A stretch of DNA of 64,000 nt from Escherichia coli (GTDB lineage Bacteria > Pseudomonadota > Gammaproteobacteria > Enterobacterales > Enterobacteriaceae). The DNA lies in NCBI RefSeq assembly GCF_024502345.1, contig NZ_JALDNN010000001.1, one strand, 5' to 3'. The notes beneath the pieces are model-generated. The model was not told the DNA's origin. It made no database searches and saw nothing but the letters and a program-made list of their open reading frames with translations. Positions 4,860-32,979 of the stretch are shown in pieces. Within the stretch, counting starts at the first letter, position 1, and every line of letters starts with the position of its first letter. Both the position numbers and the translations under genes were made by a program.

Positions 4860-6198
4860 CATAAGCGCTAACTTAAGGGTTGAACCATCTGAAGAATGCG
4901 ACGCCTCGGTGCCTCGTTAAGACGATGCCTCGCGTTCTTCAATTGCGTTTTGTAGGCTGTCAGGGATACTGTCCCACGAATGGCCACCTGTAAGCTCCAG
5001 ATGACCATTTTTGTTATTCTCCACAACGAGTTAGTTCTTCTTTTCGGATCCGGCACTTCTGGGGGGGAAATCCAGCGATGGCTGGATTATGTCGTCAATT
5101 AAAAATGCGGCGAGTAGATTAGCAAATATCCACGCTTTCGCGAGTTCAGGTTCCTTTGCACGCAAAGCATCCAGGTGCAGCAAACTTTTGAGCCGCTTAA
5201 AAGCCAGTTCAATTTGCCATCGCAGACGGTAACAATCAGCCACTTGCTCTGCTGAATATTCATCTTCCGGTAATGATGTTAGCAATAGCACATGGCCCGC
5301 TGCTTCCAGCGTTTCCGCCTGAACTACTCGTCCTTTTCGACGATTCTCGCTGAGCAGTCGGGTTTTACTGATTAATGCTTTTTCGGGAGGAAGTGATACG
5401 GCAATGAGACGTGCCGGAAAGGGAGCTCCGGCTTTTTTATTACCTGAATTGCCTATCATTACAGTGGTTTCACCGTTCTTACCGCAATCCAGCCCGCGCA
5501 GAAAACCCATCATGTCAAAGCGCATTCCTTCTGCAGTTAACCAGCGCAATCCTCGCCAGTGAACCCGGACGATATAATCAGCTTCTCCAAAAGCAAGTGA
5601 GCGGATACATTCGGGACGCGAACCGAATCCCCGGTCAGCAATGCGTATCTCGTCTGCCGTTTGCGCAAATCGGTCCAGCCGTTCAGCGTCTCTGCTGTCG
5701 GTTAGCTCAAAATCAGTGAACTGACAGGTATGAGGATCATATCCCATATGTAGTCGCCATTCAGCGCTGCCGCCCCCGGGCGCACTGATTGCTGTTCCAT
5801 CGACAAGACGCAATCTCTTTCCGCTTGTACAACCCGTAACTGCGGCGCGCACAGCAAGTGTTTGTGCGGCAAGTATGCCAAACCAGTCGGCGGCATTCCG
5901 CAGCCGCTTCAGGAGAGCCACGTCAGATAATGTTGCAACGTCATGGAGCTGAGCCCATGCAGTGACTTCACGTAATGACATCCCCCCGGGGCCGTAAGCC
6001 AGCCCCAGACGTAGCAGAGTTGCAGCATCACGAATTTCGCGGCGGCGGGTTAGAGCCCCGGCATTACGTGCCGAAGTATCCAGTTCTTCGGGCTTACCAA
6101 TATGGGCCAGAATTGCTGACCAGTTATCGTGAGAGTAATTCATCGGCACGTTAAATCATATCAGGCGTAATACCACAACCCTTAAGTTAGCGCTTATG
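4860..6198 (-). mobile_element. IS186 insertion sequence
   Basis: Ends cataagcgctaacttaagggttg... and inverted copy at 6176-6198; 10-bp target duplication ggattactcc at 4850-4859 and 6199-6208; target reconstructs to GGGGATTACTCCCC (G4-N6-C4). Confidence 0.9.
5031..6143 (-). CDS. insL: IS186 transposase InsL
   Basis: ORF 5031..6149, MNYSHDNWSAILAHIGKPEELDTSARNAG... (IS4-family DDE transposase). Confidence 0.9.
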   Translation of the reverse strand: MNYSHDNWSAILAHIGKPEELDTSARNAGALTRRREIRDAATLLRLGLAYGPGGMSLREVTAWAQLHDVATLSDVALLKRLRNAADWFGILAAQTLAVRAAVTGCTSGKRLRLVDGTAISAPGGGSAEWRLHMGYDPHTCQFTDFELTDSRDAERLDRFAQTADEIRIADRGFGSRPECIRSLAFGEADYIVRVHWRGLRWLTAEGMRFDMMGFLRGLDCGKNGETTVMIGNSGNKKAGAPFPARLIAVSLPPEKALISKTRLLSENRRKGRVVQAETLEAAGHVLLLTSLPEDEYSAEQVADCYRLRWQIELAFKRLKSLLHLDALRAKEPELAKAWIFANLLAAFLIDDIIQPSLDFPPRSAGSEKKN

Positions 6199-18773: not shown

Positions 18774-19457
18774 ATGAAACTGTTGATTGTCGAAGATGAA
18801 AAGAAAACCGGAGAATACTTGACCAAAGGGTTAACCGAAGCCGGTTTTGTGGTCGATTTGGCCGACAACGGGCTGAATGGCTACCATCTGGCGATGACCG
18901 GTGATTATGATCTGATAATCCTCGATATTATGCTGCCGGACGTGAACGGCTGGGATATCGTGCACATGTTGCGCTCCGCCAATAAAGGGATGCCGATTCT
19001 GTTGCTTACCGCGCTTGGCACCATTGAACATCGCGTCAAGGGGCTGGAGTTGGGGGCAGATGACTACCTGGTGAAACCATTCGCTTTTGCTGAACTACTG
19101 GCGCGGGTGCGCACTCTCCTGCGGCGCGGGGCGGCGGTGATTATCGAAAGTCAGTTTCAGGTTGCCGATCTGATGGTCGATCTCGTCAGCCGCAAAGTCA
19201 CCCGCAGCGGCACGCGCATCACTTTGACCAGTAAAGAGTTTACTCTGCTGGAGTTTTTTCTCCGCCATCAGGGCGAAGTGCTGCCCCGCTCGCTTATCGC
19301 CTCGCAGGTATGGGACATGAATTTTGACAGCGATACCAATGCTATTGATGTGGCGGTGAAGCGGCTGCGCGGCAAAATCGACAACGACTTTGAGCCGAAG
19401 CTGATTCAAACCGTGCGCGGCGTGGGCTACATGCTTGAGGTGCCGGATGGTCAGTAA
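18774..19457 (+). CDS. cusR: Copper-responsive two-component response regulator CusR (OmpR family)
   Basis: 227-aa [23 protein letters not shown]... Confidence 0.95.
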
Positions 19458-20889
19458 ACCATTTCAGCGTCCGTTTTCGCTGGCAACCCGCCTGACCTTT
19501 TTTATCAGCCTGGCCACCATCGCGGCGTTTTTCGCCTTTGCATGGATCATGATCCACTCAGTAAAAGTGCATTTTGCCGAGCAGGATATTAATGATTTAA
19601 AAGAGATTAGCGCCACCCTTGAACGGGTACTAAATCACCCTGACGAAACGCAAGCCCGACGCTTAATGACGCTGGAAGATATCGTCAGTGGTTATTCCAA
19701 CGTGTTGATTTCCCTGGCAGATAGTCAGGGTAAAACGGTGTATCACTCCCCCGGTGCGCCGGATATCCGCGAGTTTACGCGTGACGCCATACCCGATAAA
19801 GACGCTCAGGGTGGCGAGGTGTATCTCCTTTCCGGCCCGACGATGATGATGCCAGGCCACGGTCACGGGCATAGGGAACACAGCAACTGGCGGATGATTA
19901 ACTTGCCGGTTGGCCCGTTGGTGGACGGCAAACCGATTTATACGCTCTACATCGCGCTTTCGATCGATTTTCATCTTCATTACATAAATGATTTGATGAA
20001 TAAACTTATTATGACCGCATCGGTAATCAGCATCCTGATCGTCTTTATCGTACTGTTGGCGGTACATAAAGGTCACGCGCCGATCCGCAGCGTCAGCCGT
20101 CAAATCCAGAATATTACCTCGAAAGATCTCGACGTTCGCCTCGACCCGCAGACCGTGCCCATTGAGCTGGAACAGCTGGTACTGTCGTTCAACCATATGA
20201 TCGAGCGTATTGAGGATGTCTTTACCCGCCAGTCCAATTTCTCAGCGGATATCGCCCACGAAATTCGCACGCCGATTACCAATCTCATCACGCAAACGGA
20301 AATCGCCCTCAGCCAGTCGCGCAGCCAGAAGGAGCTGGAAGATGTGCTCTACTCTAATCTCGAAGAGCTGACGCGAATGGCGAAAATGGTCAGCGATATG
20401 CTGTTTCTCGCTCAGGCCGATAACAACCAGCTAATCCCCGAAAAGAAAATGCTCAACCTGGCGGATGAAGTCGGCAAAGTGTTCGATTTTTTCGAGGCTT
20501 TAGCGGAAGATCGCGGCGTGGAGTTGCGATTTGTTGGCGACGAATGTCAGGTTGCGGGCGATCCGCTGATGCTGCGTCGGGCGTTAAGCAACCTGCTTTC
20601 TAATGCCCTGCGTTATACGCCACCCGGAGAGGCAATTGTAGTGCGCTGCCAGACGGTCGATCATCAGGTGCAAGTTATCGTCGAAAACCCCGGTACTCCC
20701 ATTGCGCCCGAGCACTTACCGCGATTGTTTGACCGTTTCTACCGCGTTGACCCCTCCCGCCAACGAAAAGGCGAAGGTAGCGGCATTGGGCTGGCGATAG
20801 TGAAATCGATTGTTGTCGCGCATAAAGGCTCGGTTGCGGTAACGTCAGATGCCCGGGGGACAAGGTTTGTTATCACATTACCCGCTTAA
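19447..20889 (+). CDS. cusS: Copper-sensing histidine kinase CusS
   Basis: ORF 19435..20889; start at [12 protein letters not shown] (480 aa), overlaps cusR stop. Confidence 0.93.
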
Positions 20890-21113
20890 TCCTTCAGCAA
20901 ACGGCAACTTTTATAACCAGTGTAAAAATAACGTGCCGCAATAGTCATACCTATTAATGGTAAAAAGCTGTCACAATTCATAAAAAACCTTAATATACGC
21001 CACCCTAAACATAACCAGCGTTAATGTAAGGTTTTTGTGTGGACTGGCTTCTTGATGTTTTTGCTACCTAGCTCTATGGCTTAAAAGTAATCGCGATAAC
21101 GTTAGCGGTCATC

Positions 21114-23276
21114 ATGTTCATCAGCGGGCTGGACGATTTTTTTATTGATGTCGTCTACTGGGTACGCCGCATTAAACGCAAGTTGAGTGTTTATCGCCGC
21201 TACCCGCGAATGAGTTACCGCGAACTGTATAAACCAGATGAAAAACCGTTAGCGATTATGGTTCCGGCGTGGAATGAAACGGGCGTCATCGGCAATATGG
21301 CCGAGCTGGCGGCGACCACGCTCGACTACGAAAACTATCATATCTTTGTTGGCACCTACCCCAACGACCCCGATACTCAGCGTGATGTTGACGAAGTGTG
21401 CGCTCGCTTTCCGAACGTGCATAAGGTAGTCTGCGCGCGTCCTGGCCCCACCAGCAAAGCCGACTGTCTGAACAACGTGCTGGACGCCATCACCCAGTTT
21501 GAGCGTAGCGCCAATTTCGCTTTTGCTGGTTTTATTCTGCATGACGCCGAAGATGTGATTTCACCGATGGAATTGCGTCTGTTCAACTATCTGGTCGAGC
21601 GTAAAGATCTGATTCAGATCCCGGTGTATCCGTTCGAACGCGAATGGACGCACTTCACCAGCATGACTTACATTGATGAGTTTTCAGAACTGCATGGCAA
21701 AGATGTTCCGGTGCGTGAAGCCCTCGCCGGACAAGTGCCCAGCGCAGGCGTCGGCACCTGTTTCAGCCGCCGCGCCGTGACCGCACTGTTAGCTGACGGT
21801 GACGGTATTGCTTTCGACGTGCAGAGTCTTACTGAAGATTACGACATTGGCTTCCGCCTGAAAGAAAAAGGTATGACGGAAATTTTTGTCCGTTTTCCGG
21901 TGGTGGACGAAGCCAAAGAACGCGAGCAGCGTAAATTTTTACAGCACGCACGGACATCAAACATGATCTGCGTGCGCGAATATTTCCCCGATACCTTTTC
22001 GACTGCGGTTCGACAAAAATCCCGCTGGATCATCGGCATTGTTTTCCAGGGCTTTAAAACCCATAAATGGACCTCCAGCCTGACGCTGAACTACTTTCTC
22101 TGGCGCGACCGCAAAGGGGCAATCAGTAACTTTGTCAGCTTCCTCGCGATGCTGGTGATGATCCAGCTTTTGCTGTTGCTGGCGTATGAAAGTTTGTGGC
22201 CCGATGCCTGGCATTTCCTTTCTATTTTCAGCGGCAGCGCATGGTTAATGACCCTGCTGTGGCTAAACTTTGGTTTGATGGTTAACCGCATCGTGCAGCG
22301 GGTGATTTTCGTTACTGGCTACTACGGCCTGACGCAGGGGCTGCTTTCCGTCCTGCGTCTTTTCTGGGGCAACCTGATTAACTTCATGGCCAACTGGCGC
22401 GCGCTAAAACAGGTACTCCAACACGGCGATCCACGTCGCGTCGCGTGGGATAAAACAACGCATGACTTCCCCAGCGTGACTGGCGATACCCGCTCGTTGC
22501 GCCCGTTAGGCCAAATTCTGCTGGAAAATCAGGTCATCACTGAAGAACAACTCGATACAGCACTGCGTAATCGCGTCGAAGGTCTACGCCTGGGCGGTTC
22601 AATGCTGATGCAGGGGCTGATTAGCGCCGAGCAGCTGGCACAGGCGCTGGCAGAGCAAAACGGCGTGGCGTGGGAATCCATCGATGCCTGGCAGATCCCT
22701 TCCTCGCTGATTGCCGAAATGCCGGCCTCCGTGGCGCTGCATTATGCGGTACTGCCGCTGCGTCTGGAAAATGATGAGTTAATTGTCGGCAGTGAAGATG
22801 GTATTGACCCAGTTTCGCTGGCGGCCCTGACGCGTAAAGTCGGACGCAAAGTGCGTTACGTCATTGTTCTGCGGGGACAAATTGTCACGGGGTTACGTCA
22901 CTGGTATGCACGCCGACGCGGTCACGATCCGCGGGCAATGTTGTACAATGCGGTTCAGCATCAGTGGCTCACGGAACAGCAGACCGGTGAAATCTGGCGG
23001 CAATATGTGCCGCATCAGTTCCTGTTCGCCGAAATACTGACCACGCTCGGTCATATTAATCGTTCAGCAATTAACGTGTTGTTATTGCGCCATGAACGCA
23101 GTTCTCTGCCGCTCGGCAAGTTTTTGGTCACCGAAGGTGTTATCAGCCAGGAAACGTTGGATCGCGTCCTGACAATTCAACGCGAATTACAAGTTTCGAT
23201 GCAATCACTATTACTCAAAGCAGGTTTAAACACAGAACAGGTTGCGCAACTGGAGTCCGAAAATGAAGGAGAATAA
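21114..23276 (+). CDS. nfrB: Phage N4 adsorption protein B (inner-membrane glycosyltransferase family 2); N-terminal extension interrupted by in-frame TAG
   Basis: 720-aa ORF MFISGLDDFFIDVVYWVRR...; in-frame upstream GTG(21039) DWLLDVFAT-TAG(21069)-LYGLKVIAITLAVI precedes the ATG. Confidence 0.85.
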   Translation: MFISGLDDFFIDVVYWVRRIKRKLSVYRRYPRMSYRELYKPDEKPLAIMVPAWNETGVIGNMAELAATTLDYENYHIFVGTYPNDPDTQRDVDEVCARFPNVHKVVCARPGPTSKADCLNNVLDAITQFERSANFAFAGFILHDAEDVISPMELRLFNYLVERKDLIQIPVYPFEREWTHFTSMTYIDEFSELHGKDVPVREALAGQVPSAGVGTCFSRRAVTALLADGDGIAFDVQSLTEDYDIGFRLKEKGMTEIFVRFPVVDEAKEREQRKFLQHARTSNMICVREYFPDTFSTAVRQKSRWIIGIVFQGFKTHKWTSSLTLNYFLWRDRKGAISNFVSFLAMLVMIQLLLLLAYESLWPDAWHFLSIFSGSAWLMTLLWLNFGLMVNRIVQRVIFVTGYYGLTQGLLSVLRLFWGNLINFMANWRALKQVLQHGDPRRVAWDKTTHDFPSVTGDTRSLRPLGQILLENQVITEEQLDTALRNRVEGLRLGGSMLMQGLISAEQLAQALAEQNGVAWESIDAWQIPSSLIAEMPASVALHYAVLPLRLENDELIVGSEDGIDPVSLAALTRKVGRKVRYVIVLRGQIVTGLRHWYARRRGHDPRAMLYNAVQHQWLTEQQTGEIWRQYVPHQFLFAEILTTLGHINRSAINVLLLRHERSSLPLGKFLVTEGVISQETLDRVLTIQRELQVSMQSLLLKAGLNTEQVAQLESENEGE

Positions 23277-26235
23277 CCTTAATCGCGTCATCGGATGGTC
23301 TGGTTTACTGCTGACGTCTTTATTGAGTACCAGCGCACTCGCAGACAATATCGGCACCAGCGCAGAAGAGCTGGGGCTGAGCGATTATCGCCATTTTGTT
23401 ATTTATCCCCGTCTCGATAAGGCGCTGAAGGCACAGAAAAATAACGACGAAGCAACCGCCATCCGCGAATTTGAATATATACACCAGCAGGTGCCGGATA
23501 ATATTCCGCTGACTTTATACCTTGCGGAAGCCTATCGCCATTTTGGTCATGATGACCGGGCGCGGCTGTTGCTTGAGGATCAACTGAAACGTCACCCAGG
23601 AGATGCCCGACTTGAGCGCAGTCTGGCGGCTATTCCGGTTGAAGTGAAAAGCGTTACAACTGTTGAAGAACTGCTTGCCCAGCAAAAAGCGTGCGATGCT
23701 GCGCCGACCCTGCGTTGTCGCAGTGAAGTCGGGCAGAATGCCCTGCGGCTTGCACAGTTACCTGTCGCCAGAGCGCAACTGAACGATGCGACGTTTGCTG
23801 CATCGCCGGAAGGAAAAACGCTGCGAACCGATCTGCTGCAACGGGCAATCTACCTGAAACAATGGTCCCAGGCAGATACGCTATACAATGAAGCACGCCA
23901 GCAGAACACATTAAGCGCGGCAGAACGCCGTCAGTGGTTTGACGTGCTTCTTGCCGGGCAGCTGGACGATCGGATCCTGGCACTGCAATCACAGGGGATC
24001 TTCACCGATCCTCAGTCATATATTACTTACGCGACCGCGCTGGCTTATCGTGGCGAAAAAGCACGCCTCCAGCATTATCTCATTGAAAATAAGCCGCTGT
24101 TTACCACGGACGCACAAGAGAAAAGTTGGCTCTATCTGTTATCTAAATACAGCGCCAACCCCGTTCAGGCATTGGCGAATTATACGGTGCAGTTTGCCGA
24201 TAACCGCCAGTATGTTGTTGGCGCGACGCTACCGGTGCTGTTAAAAGAAGGTCAGTACGACGCAGCGCAAAAACTGCTCGCCACCCTCCCCGCCAATGAA
24301 ATGCTTGAGGAGCGTTATGCTGTCAGCGTGGCGACCCGTAACAAGGCTGAAGCTCTGCGTCTGGCACGATTGCTGTATCAGCAAGAACCGGCAAATCTTA
24401 CCCGCCTGGATCAACTGACCTGGCAACTGATGCAGAACGAGCAGTCACGCGAAGCTGCCGATTTATTGCTGCAACGCTATCCTTTCCAGGGCGATGCGCG
24501 TGTCAGCCAGACTTTAATGGCGCGACTGGCGTCTCTGCTGGAAAGTCATCCTTACCTGGCAACGCCGGCGAAGGTGGCGATTTTATCGAAACCCTTACCG
24601 CTGGCGGAGCAACGTCAGTGGCAAAGTCAGTTGCCGGGTATTGCAGATAATTGCCCGGCAATAGTTCGCTTGCTGGGCGATATGTCGCCTTCCTACGATG
24701 CTGCCGCCTGGAACCGTCTGGCAAAGTGTTATCGGGACACGCTACCCGGTGTGGCGCTGTATGCATGGCTTCAGGCCGAACAACGACAACCGAACGCCTG
24801 GCAACATCGTGCGGTAGCCTATCAGGCGTATCAGGTTGAGGACTACGCCACCGCACTGGCGGCCTGGCAGAAAATCAGTCTTCACGACATGAGCAATGAG
24901 GATCTGCTTGCTGCTGCCAATACCGCCCAGGCGGCAGGAAATGGTGCAGCTCGCGATCGCTGGCTACAACAGGCAGAACAACGTGGACTGGGAAACAATG
25001 CCCTCTACTGGTGGCTGCATGCGCAACGTTACATTCCTGGTCAGCCGGAACTCGCACTGAGCGATCTCACGCGCTCAATCAATATTGCGCCTTCTGCCAA
25101 CGCTTACGTTGCGCGGGCGACAATTTATCGCCAACGTCATAATGTCCCGGCGGCGGTGAGTGATTTGCGCGCCGCGCTGGAACTGGAACCGAATAATAGC
25201 AACATCCAGGCAGCGCTTGGTTACGCCTTGTGGGATAGCGGTGATATCGCACAGTCGCGGGAAATGCTCGAACAGGCGCATAAAGGGCTACCGGACGATC
25301 CGGCACTGATCCGACAACTGGCCTATGTGAACCAGCGTCTGGATGACATGCCTGCGACGCAGCACTACGCCCGGCTGGTGATTGATGACATTGATAATCA
25401 GGCGCTGATAACCCCACTGACCCCAGAGCAAAATCAGCAACGCTTCAATTTCCGCCGTTTGCATGAGGAGGTCGGTCGCCGCTGGACGTTCAGTTTCGAT
25501 TCTTCCATCGGCTTGCGTTCCGGCGCAATGAGTACCGCTAACAATAATGTCGGCGGCGCAGCGCCAGGGAAAAGCTATCGTAGCTACGGACAACTGGAAG
25601 CCGAGTACCGCATCGGACGCAATATGCTGCTGGAAGGCGACCTGCTCTCAGTTTATAGCCGCGTCTTTGCCGATACCGGAGAAAACGGGGTGATGATGCC
25701 GGTGAAAAATCCGATGTCCGGCACCGGTCTGCGCTGGAAGCCGCTGCGCGATCAGATCTTTTTCCTCGCCGTCGAACAGCAGTTGCCGCTGAACGGGCAA
25801 AATGGCGCATCCGATACCATGCTGCGCGCCAGCGCCTCATTCTTTAATGGCGGCAAATACAGCGACGAATGGCACCCGAACGGTTCAGGCTGGTTTGCCC
25901 AAAACCTGTACCTCGATGCGGCGCAATATATCCGCCAGGATATTCAGGCGTGGACGGCAGATTATCGCGTCAGCTGGCATCTGAAGGTAGCTAACGGACA
26001 GACTATTGAGCCTTACGCTCACGTTCAGGACAACGGCTATCGTGATAAAGGCACTCAGGGCGCGCAGCTTGGCGGAGTCGGGGTCCGCTGGAATATCTGG
26101 ACCGGCGAGACGCACTACGACGCCTGGCCGCACAAAGTCAGTCTCGGCGTCGAGTATCAACATACCTTTAAGGCGATTAATCAACGTAACGGAGAGCGCA
26201 ACAACGCGTTTCTCACCATTGGAGTGCACTGGTAA
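23263..26235 (+). CDS. nfrA: Phage N4 adsorption outer membrane protein NfrA
   Basis: ORF 23242..26235; start at MKENNLNRVIGWSGLLLTSLLSTSALA (990 aa). Confidence 0.92.
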   Translation: MKENNLNRVIGWSGLLLTSLLSTSALADNIGTSAEELGLSDYRHFVIYPRLDKALKAQKNNDEATAIREFEYIHQQVPDNIPLTLYLAEAYRHFGHDDRARLLLEDQLKRHPGDARLERSLAAIPVEVKSVTTVEELLAQQKACDAAPTLRCRSEVGQNALRLAQLPVARAQLNDATFAASPEGKTLRTDLLQRAIYLKQWSQADTLYNEARQQNTLSAAERRQWFDVLLAGQLDDRILALQSQGIFTDPQSYITYATALAYRGEKARLQHYLIENKPLFTTDAQEKSWLYLLSKYSANPVQALANYTVQFADNRQYVVGATLPVLLKEGQYDAAQKLLATLPANEMLEERYAVSVATRNKAEALRLARLLYQQEPANLTRLDQLTWQLMQNEQSREAADLLLQRYPFQGDARVSQTLMARLASLLESHPYLATPAKVAILSKPLPLAEQRQWQSQLPGIADNCPAIVRLLGDMSPSYDAAAWNRLAKCYRDTLPGVALYAWLQAEQRQPNAWQHRAVAYQAYQVEDYATALAAWQKISLHDMSNEDLLAAANTAQAAGNGAARDRWLQQAEQRGLGNNALYWWLHAQRYIPGQPELALSDLTRSINIAPSANAYVARATIYRQRHNVPAAVSDLRAALELEPNNSNIQAALGYALWDSGDIAQSREMLEQAHKGLPDDPALIRQLAYVNQRLDDMPATQHYARLVIDDIDNQALITPLTPEQNQQRFNFRRLHEEVGRRWTFSFDSSIGLRSGAMSTANNNVGGAAPGKSYRSYGQLEAEYRIGRNMLLEGDLLSVYSRVFADTGENGVMMPVKNPMSGTGLRWKPLRDQIFFLAVEQQLPLNGQNGASDTMLRASASFFNGGKYSDEWHPNGSGWFAQNLYLDAAQYIRQDIQAWTADYRVSWHLKVANGQTIEPYAHVQDNGYRDKGTQGAQLGGVGVRWNIWTGETHYDAWPHKVSLGVEYQHTFKAINQRNGERNNAFLTIGVHW

Positions 26236-28581: not shown

Positions 28582-28832
28582 ATGCGGGCGAAACTTCTGG
28601 GAATAGTTCTGACAACCCCTATTGCGATCAGCTCTTTTGCTTCTACCGAGACTATATCGTTTACTCCTGACAACATAAATGCGGACATTAGTCTTGGAAC
28701 TCTGAGCGGAAAAACAAAAGAGCGCGTTTATCTAGCTGAAGAAGGAGGCCGAAAAGTCAGTCAACTCGACTGGAAATTCAATAACGCTGCAATTATTAAA
28801 GGTGCAATTAATTGGGATTTGATGCCCCAGAT
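28582..28832 (+). pseudogene. ompT: ompT 5' fragment (outer membrane protease VII), truncated after ~83 codons by IS903-like element
   Basis: MRAKLLGIVLTTPIAISSFASTETISFTPDNINADISLGTLSGKTKERVYLAEEGGRKVSQLDWKFNNAAIIKGAINWDLMPQ then IS inverted repeat at 28833. Confidence 0.85.
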
Positions 28833-29889
28833 GGCTTTGTTGAATAAATCGAACTTTTGCTGAGTTGAAGGATCAGATCACGTATCTTCCCGACAACGCA
28901 GACCGTTCCGTGGCAAAGCAAAAGTTCAAAATCACCAACTGGCCCACCTACAATAAAGCCCTCATCAACCGTGGCTCCATAACTTTCTGGCTGGATGATG
29001 AAGCTATTCAGGCCTGGTATGAGTCAGCAACACCTTCTTCACGAGGCAGACCTCAGCGCTATTCTGACCTTGCCATCACGACTGTGCTGGTCATTAAACG
29101 CGTATTCAGGCTGACCCTGCGCGCTGCGCAGGGCTTTATTGATTCCATTTTTTCTCTGATGAACGTTCCGCTACGCTGCCCGGATTACAGCTGTGTCAGC
29201 AGGCGGGCAAAGTCGGTTAATGTCAGTTTCAAAACGCCCACCCGGGGTGAAATCGCACACCTGGTAATTGATTCCACCGGGCTGAAGGTCTTCGGTGAAG
29301 GCGAGTGGAAAGTCAAAAAGCATGGCCAGGAACGCCGCCGTATCTGGCGTAAGCTGCATCTCGCCGTTGACAGTAAAACACATGAAATCATCTGCGCTGA
29401 CCTGTCGCTGAACAACGTTACGGACTCAGAGGCCTTCCCCGGGTTAATCCGGCAAACCCACCGGAAAATCAGGTCAGCCGCCGCCGATGGCGCTTACGAT
29501 ACCCGGCTATGTCACGATGAACTGCGGCGTAAGAAAATCAGCGCGCTTATCCCTCCCCGAAAAGGTGCGGGTTACTGGCCCGGTGAATATGCAGACCGTA
29601 ACCGTGCAGTGGCTAATCAGCGAATGACCGGGAGTAATGCGCGGTGGAAATGGACAACAGATTACAACCGTCGCTCGATAGCGGAAACGGCGATGTACCG
29701 GGTAAAACAGCTGTTCGGGGGTTCACTGACACTGCGTGACTACGATGGTCAGGTTGCAGAGGCTATGGCCCTGGTACGAGCGCTGAACAAAATGACGAAA
29801 GCAGGTATGCCTGAAAGCGTGCGTATTGCCTGAAAACACAACCCGCTACGGGGGAGACTTACCCGAAATCTGATTTATTCAACAAAGCC
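28833..29889 (+). mobile_element. IS903-like insertion sequence (IS5 family), copy 1, no target-site duplication
   Basis: 1057 bp; terminal inverted repeats ggctttgttgaataaatcg / cgatttattcaacaaagcc; flanks gccccagat vs tcgctgaaa differ. Confidence 0.85.
28865..29833 (+). CDS. IS903-family transposase
   Basis: 322-aa ORF ...[39 protein letters not shown]...; identical to the copy at 56939..57907. Confidence 0.85.
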
Positions 29890-30331: not shown

Positions 30332-30727
30332 ATGTCTAACACTAACGCCAATTTTGAGATGACCGGGATCCTGTTAGGGCAAGAAGTCCGTAAACGTAAA
30401 ACTCCTCAGGAGAAGATCGCCATTATCCAGCAGACGATGGAGCCGGGTATGAATGTCTCCCATGTCGCCCGCCTGCATGGTATCCAGCCCAGCCTGCTGT
30501 TTAAGTGGAAGAAGCAATATCAGGAAGGCAGCCTCACCGCCGTTGCGGCTGGAGAGGAAGTCGTTCCTGCTTCTGAGCTTACTGCTGCTCTGAAGCAGGT
30601 CCGGGAGCTTCAGCGCCTTCTGGGCAAGAAAACGATGGAAGTTGAGATCCTGAAAGAAGCCGTGGAGTACGGTCAGTCGCGAAAATGGATAGCGCACGCG
30701 CCCTTGTTGCCAAAGGACGGGGAATAG
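30332..30727 (+). CDS. IS3-family transposase OrfA (HTH)
   Basis: 131 aa, ...[60 protein letters not shown]... similar to IS2 InsC. Confidence 0.8.
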
Positions 30728-31566
30728 CCATGGTCAGCCGGACCATGGGCGTGTCGCGTGCGCAACTGTCACTGCGGATTAACCGTTCTGCCGACTGGCA
30801 GGACAGGCGCTGTAACCGGCGTAATGAAGAAGCAGACGCAGAAATACTGTCGGCTATCCTCAACATTATCAGCGATATGCCGAGTTATGGTTATCGACGC
30901 GTGTGGGGCATCCTGCGCAAGCAACGTCGCACAGAGGGACAGCCACCTGTGAATGCCAAACGGCTTTACAGGATAATGAGCGAGCATAACCTGTTGTTGT
31001 TGCATCACAAACCAGAGCGACCGAAGCGTGAACATAAGGGCAAGATAGCGGTGGCAGAAAGCGATATGCGCTGGTGTTCAGATGGCTTCGAGTTCGGCTG
31101 CGACAACGGCGAAAAACTGCGGGTAACGTTCGCGCTGGACTGCTGCGACCGTGAGGCCATAGACTGGGCAGCAAGCACGGGAGGCTATGACAGTTCGACC
31201 GTGCAGGATGTGATGCTGAGGTCGGTGGAAAAGCGCTTCGGCGACAGGTTGCCCGACACAGCGGTGCAGTGGCTGACGGATAACGGTTCAGCGTATACCG
31301 CGTATGAAACGCGGAGGTTCGCGAGAGAGCTGAATCTGGAGCCCTGCACAACAGCGGTGAGCAGCCCGCAGAGTAATGGCATGGCCGAACGGTTCGTGAA
31401 AACGATGAAAGAAGACTATATCGCGTTCATGCCAAAACCGGATGTGAGAACAGCACTGCGAAACCTTGCAGTAGCGTTCACGCATTACAATGAAAACCAC
31501 CCGCACAGCGCGCTGGGATATCACTCCCCGAGGGAATACCGGCGGCAGCGGACATCGTTAACTTAA
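30685..31566 (+). CDS. IS3-family transposase OrfB (DDE catalytic domain)
   Basis: 293 aa overlapping orfA in another frame; ...[17 protein letters not shown]... Confidence 0.8.
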
Positions 31567-32281: not shown

Positions 32282-32557
32282 GTGGCTTCTGTTTCTATCA
32301 GCTGTCCCTCCTGTTCAGCTACTGACGGGGTGGTGCGTAACGGCAAAAGCACCGCCGGACATCAGCGCTATCTCTGCTCTCACTGCCGTAAAACATGGCA
32401 ACTGCAGTTCACTTACACCGCTTCTCAACCCGGTACGCACCAGAAAATCATTGATATGGCCATGAATGGCGTTGGATGCCGGGCAACCGCCCGCATTATG
32501 GGCGTTGGCCTCAACACGATTTTCCGCCATTTAAAAAACTCAGGCCGCAGTCGGTAA
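32282..32557 (+). CDS. insA: IS1 InsA
   Basis: 91 aa [43 protein letters not shown]... Confidence 0.9.
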
Positions 32558-32979
32558 CCTCGCGCATACAGCCGGGCAGTGACGTCATCGTCTGCGCGGA
32601 AATGGACGAACAGTGGGGATACGTCGGGGCTAAATCGCGCCAGCGCTGGCTGTTTTACGCGTATGACAGGCTCCGGAAGACGGTTGTTGCGCACGTATTC
32701 GGTGAACGCACTATGGCGACGCTGGGGCGTCTTATGAGCCTGCTGTCACCCTTTGACGTGGTGATATGGATGACGGATGGCTGGCCGCTGTATGAATCCC
32801 GCCTGAAGGGAAAGCTGCACGTAATCAGCAAGCGATATACGCAGCGAATTGAGCGGCATAACCTGAATCTGAGGCAGCACCTGGCACGGCTGGGACGGAA
32901 GTCGCTGTCGTTCTCAAAATCGGTGGAGCTGCATGACAAAGTCATCGGGCATTATCTGAACATAAAACACTATCAATAA
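32476..32979 (+). CDS. insB: IS1 InsB (expressed as InsAB' by frameshift)
   Basis: 167-aa ORF in -1 frame relative to insA. Confidence 0.85.

What the first reader, a model, noticed from the sequence alone, without database searches (positions are those of the whole stretch)
21039..21116. In-frame amber codon in the N-terminal extension of nfrB (phage N4 receptor component)
Upstream of the first ATG of the 720-aa nfrB ORF, the same frame continues with a hydrophobic stretch (LYGLKVIAITLAVI) and, beyond a TAG at 21069-21071, an SD-preceded GTG start (GTG-DWLLDVFAT-TAG). This looks like a full-length NfrB start with a TGG-to-TAG change at codon 11. NfrB would then be made only by reinitiation at the internal ATG, lacking its first transmembrane segment, or by amber suppression. 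That could alter phage N4 adsorption and c-di-GMP-dependent exopolysaccharide export.
Basis: partly seen in the sequence, partly recalled or inferred. Interest (0 to 1): 0.55.

Follow-up and report, generated by a model that had tools for sequence, protein, structure and literature searches.

The report
Recurrent amber stop in nfrB
One G-to-A change puts a stop at codon 11 of nfrB, the gene for the sugar-polymer synthase that phage N4 needs; the same change is already flagged in E. coli CFT073 and present in Nissle 1917 and has probably arisen several times at a DNA-methylation hotspot, so it is real but an ordinary loss-of-function variant.

Summary
The GTG at 21039 is the RefSeq start of the 745-aa NfrB. 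Codon 11 (21069-21071) is TAG instead of TGG because of a single G>A at 21070, and the next canonical in-frame start is ATG-26 at 21114.

It is not a sequencing error. The same allele on the same haplotype occurs in at least 11 independent assemblies. A metagenome sibling (L013) differs from the window at only this base across the 6,088-nt nfrB-nfrA-ybcH operon.

It is not new. 79 of 5,426 complete E. coli genomes carry W11*, including CFT073, Nissle 1917 and ATCC 25922. RefSeq marks CFT073 nfrB as a pseudogene with an 'internal stop'. Other nfrB amber alleles are common (Q193* in E. coli B and C, Q376*, Q704* in ETEC H10407), and premature stops in nfrB have been reported in the literature.

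TGG-11 lies in a Dcm site (CCTGG). Deamination of 5-methylcytosine on the opposite strand gives exactly CCTAG. W11* sits on four nfrB haplotypes that are 17-43 nt apart, each with a near-identical TGG twin. Sampled carriers of control alleles mostly share one haplotype.

The most likely effect is a null or severe hypomorph. A Met-26 restart has a weak Shine-Dalgarno match and would lack the N-terminal membrane helix kept in all 22 distant homologues examined. No phenotype was tested.

The parts
21028..21031 (+). Shine-Dalgarno-like AAGG, 7 nt upstream of the native GTG start
   Evidence: Sequence. Duplex with the anti-SD is -3.9 kcal/mol.
21039..21041 (+). Native GTG start codon of the full-length (745-aa) nfrB
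   Evidence: Same position as the RefSeq CDS start in O157 PV15-279, K-12, PapRG-04-4 and ABU 83972.
21067..21071 (.). Former Dcm site. It reads CCTAG here and CCTGG (CCWGG) in wild-type alleles.
   Evidence: G>A at 21070 is the change expected from 5-methylcytosine deamination at the inner C of the bottom strand.
21069..21071 (+). In-frame amber codon (W11*), caused by G>A at 21070
   Evidence: Sibling L013 has TGG and no other difference across the 6,088-nt operon.
21066..21131 (+). Coding region for the N-terminal transmembrane helix (residues about 10-31, followed by RRIKRK). The stop interrupts it, and a Met-26 restart would omit most of it.
   Evidence: Hydropathy analysis. The helix is conserved in all 22 distant homologues aligned.
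21114..23276 (+). Remaining 720-aa ORF from ATG-26. The GT2 catalytic residues (D169, D267, QKSRW330) and the MshEN c-di-GMP-binding residues (L490, G491, G519, L537) are intact.
   Evidence: (Pfam GT2 and MshEN). Residue roles are taken from PMC8669469 and PMC8669472.
21039..23276 (+). nfrB as a whole: a nonsense allele (W11*) of the c-di-GMP-activated glycosyltransferase gene
23263..26235 (+). nfrA, intact at 990 aa. Its start overlaps the end of nfrB by 14 nt, so its expression may suffer from polarity.
   Evidence: The operon structure and the 14-nt overlap are described in PMC8669469.
26236..27126 (+). ybcH (DUF4434), the third gene of the nfrBA-ybcH operon, intact
   Evidence: (NF007404, 522 bits).
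19435..20889 (+). cusS, the gene immediately upstream on the same strand. This is the K-12-type arrangement, with no ISAs1/rhs insert.

Best explanation
The window carries a natural nonsense allele (W11*) of nfrB. The gene encodes the inner-membrane, c-di-GMP-activated family-2 glycosyltransferase that, together with NfrA and YbcH, makes and exports the N-acetylmannosamine-based surface glycan phage N4 uses as its receptor.

Origin (inferred). Trp-11 (TGG) lies inside the Dcm methylation site CCTGG. Spontaneous deamination of the 5-methylcytosine on the complementary strand gives a T:G mismatch. If very-short-patch repair does not correct it, the site becomes CCTAG, which is TAG in frame. Because this nucleotide is a hotspot, the same change has probably arisen independently in several E. 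coli lineages, one of them the window's own.

Consequence (inferred, not tested here). Ribosomes starting at the native GTG stop after 10 residues, so full-length NfrB is not made. Any restart at ATG-26 would be inefficient, and its product would lack the conserved N-terminal membrane helix. The untranslated stretch may also reduce expression of the overlapping nfrA. The strain is therefore expected to make little or none of the Nfr glycan and to resist N4-type phages that depend on NfrB.
For: Shown directly:
- A single G>A at 21070 converts TGG to TAG at codon 11 of the RefSeq-defined CDS.
- The allele is reproducible in at least 11 independent assemblies of the same haplotype and in 79 complete genomes, including CFT073, Nissle 1917 and ATCC 25922.
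- RefSeq labels the CFT073 gene a pseudogene with an 'internal stop'.

Dcm context:
- The ancestral sequence is CCTGG. It is one of seven Dcm sites in nfrB and one of five that can produce an amber codon.
- Amber hotspots at Dcm sites are the classical lacI result of Coulondre et al. 1978, as reviewed in PMC12606429.
- A laboratory-selected phage-resistant mutant carried nfrB W391*, which is another of those five sites (PMC12548472).

Recurrence:
- TAG occurs on four nfrB haplotypes that are 17-43 nt apart.
- The window differs from L013 (TGG) at this base only over 6,088 nt.
- CFT073 differs from ABU 83972 (TGG) at this base only over 2,238 nt, and EA13 differs from K-12 at this base plus two others.
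- G-restored versions of the CFT073 and L004 haplotypes have perfect 900-nt matches in complete genomes.
- The window's TAG haplotype differs from every other TAG haplotype 7 nt downstream of the variant.
- Controls: sampled carriers of Q193* (4 of 5), Q376* (2 of 2) and Q704* (3 of 3) each share one haplotype.

Loss of function:
- The N-terminal helix is conserved in all 22 homologues at 32-62% identity.
- The SD-like match before ATG-26 is weak.
- nfrB knockouts abolish N4 plating (PMC8669469, PMC8669472).
- BL21 (E. coli B) is not infected by N4 (PMC7553319), and E. coli B REL606 carries Q193*.
Against: - No phenotype, transcript or protein was measured, so 'null' is an inference.
- The 720-aa ORF downstream is fully intact with all catalytic and c-di-GMP-binding residues. 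RefSeq annotates a 728-aa CDS from a non-canonical ATC at codon 18 in Nissle and four other genomes. Residual function is therefore not excluded.
- The stop is so recent in the window's lineage (0-2 substitutions in nfrB within the clade) that the intact ORF says nothing about selection either way.
- The Dcm origin is circumstantial. The dcm gene lies outside the window, so methylation in this strain is unverified. Q704*, also at a Dcm site, looked single-origin in three carriers. Non-Dcm ambers (Q193*, Q376*) are also frequent.
- PBS4 shows that recombination can move an nfrB nonsense allele onto another background within a tract of about 430 nt. Some of the four W11* backgrounds could therefore share an origin, most plausibly EA13 and L004, which are identical for 326 nt around the site.
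Confidence: 0.72

Rival explanations
1. Functional truncated NfrB. After termination at codon 11, ribosomes restart at ATG-26 (or at ATC-18, as RefSeq's WP_137506159.1 assumes). The product of about 720-728 aa retains glycosyltransferase activity, so the allele is a hypomorph or is neutral, not a null.
For: The downstream ORF is intact with all catalytic and MshEN residues. The restart codon lies only 43 nt after the stop. The conserved G-L-D-D-x-F-x-D motif (residues 30-37) would be kept. PGAP accepts a downstream start in five genomes. The GT2 domain is cytoplasmic and would stay so without the N-out/C-in helix (inference).
Against: All 22 distant homologues keep the N-terminal hydrophobic helix and are co-linear with the 745-aa form. 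The SD-like match before ATG-26 is weak at -2.4 kcal/mol, and it is -1.5 kcal/mol before ATC-18. There is no evidence of purifying selection after the stop arose, because divergence is too low. One clade member has already gained a frameshift (L014).
Confidence: 0.15
2. Read-through. The UAG is decoded by a suppressor tRNA or by near-cognate read-through, which yields enough full-length NfrB.
For: UAG followed by C is regarded as a relatively weak termination context in E. coli (my own knowledge, not tested here). The Nfr system is naturally expressed at low levels (PMC8669469), so a small amount of protein might matter.
Against: No suppressor tRNA is present in the window, where the only tRNA is Arg-TCT. 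The rest of the genome is unavailable. Natural isolates rarely carry amber suppressors, and basal read-through is typically 1% or less (own knowledge). RefSeq treats the codon as an internal stop.
Confidence: 0.04
3. Artefact. The A at 21070 is a sequencing or consensus error, for example the known systematic nanopore miscalls at Dcm motifs.
For: The site is a Dcm motif. One complete genome (CM128593) shows two Dcm-site ambers at once, W391* and W551*, which could be such an artefact.
Against: The identical allele appears in at least 11 independent assemblies of the window's haplotype from Logan, ENA and NCBI, in CFT073, and in several independent Nissle 1917 and ATCC 25922 assemblies.
Confidence: 0.01
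4. Single origin spread by recombination. W11* arose once and was moved onto other nfrB backgrounds by short-tract homologous recombination, so there is no hotspot.
For: PBS4 carries Q193* inside a tract of about 430 nt identical to REL606 on an otherwise different haplotype. The tracts shared around W11* between EA13 and L004 (326 nt) and between CFT073 and EA13 or L004 (153 nt) are long enough for short gene-conversion events.
Against: The window's haplotype differs from all other TAG haplotypes 7 nt downstream of the variant. Its TGG twin L013 shows no other change over 6 kb, so an import would need an endpoint inside a 7-nt interval. CFT073 and ABU 83972 likewise differ at this base only. 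The change is exactly the Dcm deamination product.
Confidence: 0.12

Closest known systems
nfrB (RefSeq 'nrfB') pseudogene of E. coli CFT073, locus C_RS03030, note 'internal stop'; the same allele is in Nissle 1917, ATCC 25922 and clone D i2/i14
   Same: The same nucleotide change (TGG>TAG at codon 11), the same gene, the same K-12-type cusRS-nfrB-nfrA-ybcH neighbourhood, and intact nfrA and ybcH downstream.
   Different: The nfrB haplotype is different: 36 substitutions from the window, with TAC instead of TAT at codon 13. The window's allele most likely arose independently on a phylogroup-A-like background and is absent from all 5,426 complete RefSeq E. coli genomes.
Other natural nfrB nonsense alleles: Q193* (E. 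coli B REL606, E. coli C, ATCC 8739), Q376* (strain 7/2 and an estimated 90 genomes), Q704* (ETEC H10407 and an estimated 160 genomes); premature stops in nfrB were noted by Sellner et al. 2021 (PMC8669472)
   Same: These are amber codons that truncate the same enzyme. RefSeq annotates them as 'internal stop'. E. coli B (BL21) is reported as not infected by N4 (PMC7553319).
   Different: The positions differ. Sampled carriers of each allele mostly share a single haplotype. All sampled carriers have an ISAs1 transposase directly upstream of nfrB in place of cusS, and a flanking rhs remnant is annotated in two of them, strain 7/2 and PBS4. W11* is the earliest stop and the one found on several backgrounds.
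lacI amber hotspots at Dcm sites (Coulondre, Miller, Farabaugh and Gilbert 1978; reviewed in PMC12606429)
   Same: A GC>AT transition at the methylated inner cytosine of CCWGG creates an amber codon. The site-specific excess comes from 5-methylcytosine deamination.
   Different: The lacI hotspots were measured as mutation rates in the laboratory, with CAG>TAG on the coding strand. Here the evidence is population-genetic recurrence, and the event is on the opposite strand (TGG>TAG). No rate was measured.
Laboratory-selected phage-resistant nfrB W391* mutant of E. coli TK001 (PMC12548472)
   Same: Trp>amber at a CCTGG Dcm site in nfrB, with the same type of strand and base change. It was selected by an NfrB-dependent phage, and wild-type nfrB complemented the resistance.
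   Different: The codon is 391, not 11. The mutant arose under deliberate phage selection in the laboratory and also carried an ompA mutation.
Contingency (phase-variable) loci that switch phage receptors on and off
   Same: An elevated, site-specific mutation rate inactivates a surface structure used by phages.
   Different: There is no simple repeat or invertible element. The CCTAG product is no longer a Dcm site, so reversion would occur only at the ordinary rate. There is no evidence that the hotspot is maintained by selection.

Membership tests
NfrB, the c-di-GMP-activated GT2 exopolysaccharide synthase (nfrBA-ybcH system) | Family-2 glycosyltransferase domain with DxD, TED and QxxRW signatures (D169, D267, W330) | tested here: met
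   Pfam GT2 families are recorded on the 720-aa product. D169, D267 and QKSRW330 are present. Residue roles come from PMC8669469.
NfrB, the c-di-GMP-activated GT2 exopolysaccharide synthase (nfrBA-ybcH system) | C-terminal MshEN c-di-GMP-binding domain (L490, G491, G519, L537) | tested here: met
   PF05157 MshEN. All four residues are present.
NfrB, the c-di-GMP-activated GT2 exopolysaccharide synthase (nfrBA-ybcH system) | Operon context nfrB-nfrA-ybcH, with nfrB and nfrA overlapping by 14 nt | tested here: met
   The overlap sequence is ATGAAGGAGAATAA.
NfrB, the c-di-GMP-activated GT2 exopolysaccharide synthase (nfrBA-ybcH system) | Uninterrupted reading frame from the native start through the N-terminal transmembrane helix | tested here: not met
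   TAG at codon 11. The helix at residues about 10-31 is conserved in all 22 homologues aligned. The locus is an nfrB orthologue by descent, but it does not encode the full-length protein.
Dcm-site 5-methylcytosine deamination hotspot | The ancestral sequence matches CCWGG, and the change is C>T at the inner cytosine of one strand | tested here: met
   CCTGG>CCTAG, which is G>A on the top strand and C>T at the inner C of the bottom strand.
Dcm-site 5-methylcytosine deamination hotspot | The same base change recurs independently | tested here: met
   TAG is on four haplotypes, each with a near-identical TGG twin. At least two origins are strongly supported, because the window differs from all the other TAG haplotypes at +7 nt. 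Three or four origins are probable. Control alleles are mostly on a single haplotype.
Dcm-site 5-methylcytosine deamination hotspot | The host has an active Dcm methyltransferase, and the site's mutation rate is higher in dcm+ than in dcm- cells | not testable with these tools
   dcm and vsr lie outside the 64-kb window. No methylation or mutation-rate data are available.
Decaying pseudogene | Further disabling mutations or relaxed constraint after the first lesion | tested here: inconclusive
   Among the 11 other TAG-bearing loci of the window's haplotype, one has an additional 1-nt deletion (L014). The other substitutions in nfrB are few and synonymous. Divergence is too low to measure constraint.
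Programmed stop-codon recoding or suppression | A dedicated suppressor tRNA or recoding signal, and conservation of the stop among orthologues | tested here: not met
   There is no suppressor tRNA in the window. The orthologous codon is a sense codon (W, Y, L and others) in all homologues and in about 98% of E. coli genomes. The whole-genome tRNA set could not be tested.

The most novel reading that the evidence does not exclude
The Dcm site at codon 11 may act as a methylation-driven 'soft switch'. It would raise the rate at which lineages lose the Nfr surface glycan, and with it sensitivity to N4-type phages. Its position before the first membrane helix would leave an intact 720-aa ORF that can be re-activated by a single reversion, or that provides low-level activity through restart at Met-26. 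In that case W11* would be a recurrent, selectable and reversible receptor-off or receptor-low state, not a dead pseudogene.
Probability: 0.08. Interest if true: 0.5.

Novelty: already known. Interest (0 to 1): 0.2.

Why it matters
The practical value is modest. Strains with W11*, including the probiotic Nissle 1917, the UPEC model CFT073 and the QC strain ATCC 25922, are predicted to lack the Nfr glycan and to be non-hosts for N4-like phages that depend on NfrB. That matters for phage host-range prediction, for design of phage cocktails, and for interpreting c-di-GMP and DgcJ phenotypes in those strains.

The case also exposes inconsistent RefSeq annotation of one and the same allele. It is a pseudogene in CFT073 and a 728-aa CDS from a non-canonical ATC start in other genomes.

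It is also a clear natural example of the textbook Dcm amber hotspot acting on a phage-receptor gene. None of this changes current understanding.

Tried and rejected
1. Shigella origin. I considered this because the best complete E. coli genomes were only 98.3% identical over 24 kb and the window has many IS elements. I rejected it. Identical operon sequences occur in contigs that carry the exact NfrA sequence NCBI names as E. coli, and those contigs carry ompT. The window itself keeps the first 251 nt of ompT, cut by IS5.

2. First composite control query. It returned 2,035 genomes, but a local replay showed a leak. A SNP at a separator base let the wild-type O157 haplotype seed on the W545 segment. 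I discarded that number and rebuilt the query with 26-nt flanks and double separators that mismatch every haplotype. The rebuilt query gave 193 genomes.

3. dN/dS as evidence of retained function. The 31-40 synonymous and 0-3 non-synonymous differences between TAG alleles first looked like purifying selection after the stop. The TGG twins show that this divergence predates the independent stops, so the argument does not hold.

4. Homologue search in the 90%-clustered database. It returned only E. coli variants. I took N-terminal conservation from the 50%-clustered library instead.

5. Promoter and terminator scan of 20700-21400. Nothing exceeded shuffled expectation, so there is no evidence for an internal promoter serving the 720-aa ORF.

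6. Site-level enrichment of Dcm versus non-Dcm amber sites. All 5 Dcm sites were hit, against at least 12 of the 38 control sites seen in the 60 sampled rows. This is only suggestive. Genome counts are confounded by clonal descent, only 60 of 193 rows were visible, and two of the Dcm hits come from a single genome that may be a nanopore artefact.
Full report
**Observation.** The described sequence is present at the stated coordinates. An AAGG motif at 21028-21031 precedes a GTG at 21039. The frame reads V-D-W-L-L-D-V-F-A-T, then TAG at 21069-21071, then L-Y-G-L-K-V-I-A-I-T-L-A-V-I and ATG at 21114. That ATG opens a 720-aa ORF ending at 23276. RefSeq starts nfrB (often misspelt 'nrfB') at exactly this GTG in O157:H7 PV15-279, K-12 MG1655, PapRG-04-4 and ABU 83972, giving a 745-aa protein. 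In a 141-nt alignment around the start, the window differs from the O157 allele at a single base, 21070 A versus G, which is TAG versus TGG at codon 11. Over the whole gene there are 27 synonymous changes, 2 missense changes and the stop.

**Not an artefact.** The exact 720-aa product has been called on contigs from many independent samples. Eleven loci from Logan, ENA and NCBI assemblies (L002, L003, L005, L006, L012, L014-L019) carry the same TAG on the same haplotype. One gut-metagenome contig (L013) has TGG and differs from the window at no other position across the 6,088-nt nfrB-nfrA-ybcH operon.

**Already present in reference genomes.** I used a 55-nt query centred on the variant, so that every 28-nt seed must contain the A. 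It matched 79 of 5,426 complete E. coli genomes, among them CFT073, Nissle 1917, ATCC 25922 and clone D i2/i14. In Nissle 1917, EA13, strain 9, Ecol_244 and FDAARGOS_1255 the same allele is instead given a 728-aa CDS (WP_137506159.1 in four of the five; EA13 has WP_249979453.1). That CDS starts at codon 18, a non-canonical ATC. None of the 5,426 genomes has the window's own haplotype with TAG.

**Other nfrB nonsense alleles are common.** nfrB contains seven Dcm sites (CCWGG). At five of them (W11, Q337, W391, W551, Q704) deamination of the methylated cytosine would create an amber codon. I built composite queries of variant-centred segments to count carriers.
- The four other Dcm-prone sites matched 172 genomes. 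Most were Q704*, which I verified in ETEC H10407.
- A first control query was leaky, and I discarded its result.
- A rebuilt control query was validated locally. Across 38 non-Dcm TGG and CAG codons it matched 193 genomes. These include Q193* in E. coli B REL606, E. coli C and ATCC 8739 and Q376* in strain 7/2 and an estimated 90 others. The remaining hits map to segments covering W443, Q498, W330, Q433, Q648, W545 and Q734.

Every carrier I inspected is marked 'internal stop' in RefSeq. Together, about 444 of roughly 5,090 nfrB-bearing complete genomes carry an amber at a TGG or CAG codon. [quoted passage not shown] Mutalik et al. report that N4 does not infect BL21 (PMC7553319).

**Origin.** The TGG of codon 11 is the last three bases of the Dcm site CCTGG. 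Deamination of the 5-methylcytosine on the complementary strand gives exactly CCTAG. Dcm sites are the classical amber hotspots of lacI (Coulondre et al. 1978, reviewed in PMC12606429). A phage-resistant mutant selected in the laboratory carried nfrB W391*, another of the five Dcm-prone codons (PMC12548472).

The population pattern fits a hotspot. TAG occurs on four nfrB haplotypes separated by 17-43 substitutions: the window type, a K-12-like type (EA13), the CFT073/ST73 type and the L004 type. Each has a TGG counterpart.
- Window versus L013: 0 other differences over 6,088 nt.
- CFT073 versus ABU 83972: 0 other differences over 2,238 nt.
- EA13 versus K-12: 2 other differences.
- L004 versus strain M3: 0 other differences in the first 812 nt.
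- G-restored versions of the CFT073 and L004 haplotypes have perfect 900-nt matches in complete genomes.

The window's haplotype differs from all other TAG haplotypes 7 nt downstream of the variant. An import by recombination would therefore need an endpoint inside that 7-nt interval.

As a control, sampled carriers of Q193* (4 of 5), Q376* (2 of 2) and Q704* (3 of 3) each share one haplotype. The exception is PBS4, which shares a tract of about 430 nt around Q193* with REL606 on an otherwise different background. Recombination can therefore move such alleles. My conclusion is that at least two independent origins of W11* are strongly supported, and three or four are probable.

**Consequence.** This part is inferred, not measured. 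NfrB is a c-di-GMP-activated processive GT2 enzyme that, with NfrA and YbcH, makes and secretes a ManNAc-based glycan required for N4 adsorption (PMC8669469, PMC8669472). The stop precedes a hydrophobic helix (residues about 10-31) that is followed by RRIKRK. In 22 homologues at 32-62% identity this helix and the following G-[LI]-D-D-x-[FL]-x-D motif are conserved, and the proteins are co-linear with the 745-aa form. Trp-11 itself is variable. The first canonical restart codon is ATG-26. Its SD-like pairing is weak, at -2.4 kcal/mol against -3.9 for the native start. No promoter-like signal above chance serves the downstream ORF. The only tRNA in the window is Arg-TCT. The 720-aa ORF retains D169, D267, QKSRW330, L490, G491, G519 and L537. 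Because the stop is so recent in this lineage, that intactness carries no information about selection. One clade member has already acquired a 1-nt deletion in nfrB (L014). nfrA overlaps the end of nfrB by 14 nt, so polarity on nfrA is possible. The most probable state is a null or severe hypomorph. A functional truncated enzyme (about 15%) and read-through (about 4%) remain possible.

**Verdict.** It is an ordinary, already-annotated kind of polymorphism: a natural nonsense allele of a phage-receptor pathway gene. The added points are that the window's copy most likely arose independently on its own haplotype, that the site is a Dcm methylation hotspot, and that RefSeq handles the allele inconsistently. 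Interest is low at 0.2.

Noticed in passing
window 28582-29833: ompT is truncated. Only its first 251 nt (28582-28832) match the sibling contig L012, and co-linearity ends at 28832. An IS5-family transposase ORF follows at 28865-29833. The strain is probably OmpT-negative.
   Followed up: partly
window 5031-6149(-), 28865-29833(+), 30685-31566(+), 32476-32979(+), 37915-38418(+): IS density is high for 64 kb: IS4-family, IS5-family and IS2 (TnpB) transposases plus two 167-aa ORFs. The first 167-aa ORF was confirmed as IS1; the second was assigned by its size only. The IS5, IS2 and first IS1 lie between the envY-like gene and tRNA-Arg(TCT) at 36672-36748, where K-12 has the DLP12 prophage. This explains the many scattered BLAST places.
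   Followed up: partly
L009, L023-L026 (Nissle 1917, EA13, strain 9, Ecol_244, FDAARGOS_1255) versus L008 (CFT073): RefSeq annotates the identical W11* allele in two ways. It is a pseudogene with 'internal stop' in CFT073, and a 728-aa CDS starting at the non-canonical ATC of codon 18 elsewhere (WP_137506159.1 in four genomes, WP_249979453.1 in EA13). The gene symbol also alternates between 'nrfB' and 'nfrB'.
   Followed up: yes
L001, L020, L021, L022, L029-L036 (upstream of nfrB): In O157:H7 PV15-279 and in every sampled carrier of Q193*, Q376* or Q704*, an ISAs1 transposase lies directly upstream of nfrB in place of cusS. Rhs-related sequence is annotated beside it in three of these loci (PV15-279, strain 7/2, PBS4). 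The W11* carriers and the window keep the K-12-type cusS-nfrB junction. I did not examine whether the insert affects nfrB transcription.
   Followed up: no
proteins P0038-P0095, P0100-P0149: Gene callers produce many structural variants of the nfrB product in E. coli. There are 1268-aa forms in which a PAAR/DUF6531 (Rhs-type) N-terminus runs in frame into NfrB (P0057 is seen on 527 contigs), and 670-aa forms (P0106 on 330 contigs, P0108 on 233).
   Followed up: no
NZ_CM128593.1 (hit H166): One complete genome (strain 100416) matches both the W391* and the W551* segments, which means two Dcm-site ambers in one nfrB. This could be a genuine double mutant or a systematic nanopore consensus error at Dcm motifs.
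   Followed up: no
L027 (ABU 83972) versus L008/L009 (CFT073, Nissle 1917): Among these closely related B2 strains, regarded as ST73-type (sequence types not determined here), the allele is polymorphic. ABU 83972 has TGG, while CFT073, Nissle 1917 and ATCC 25922 have TAG, with no other difference between ABU 83972 and CFT073 in the 2,238-nt gene.
   Followed up: partly
L014 (GCA_032324195.1), equivalent to window 22789: A member of the window's own clade carries an additional 1-nt deletion in nfrB, which gives further stops from codon 597. L015 has no nucleotide difference from the window in nfrB, yet its gene caller reported a 688-aa product. So different start choices are made for the same sequence.
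   Followed up: partly
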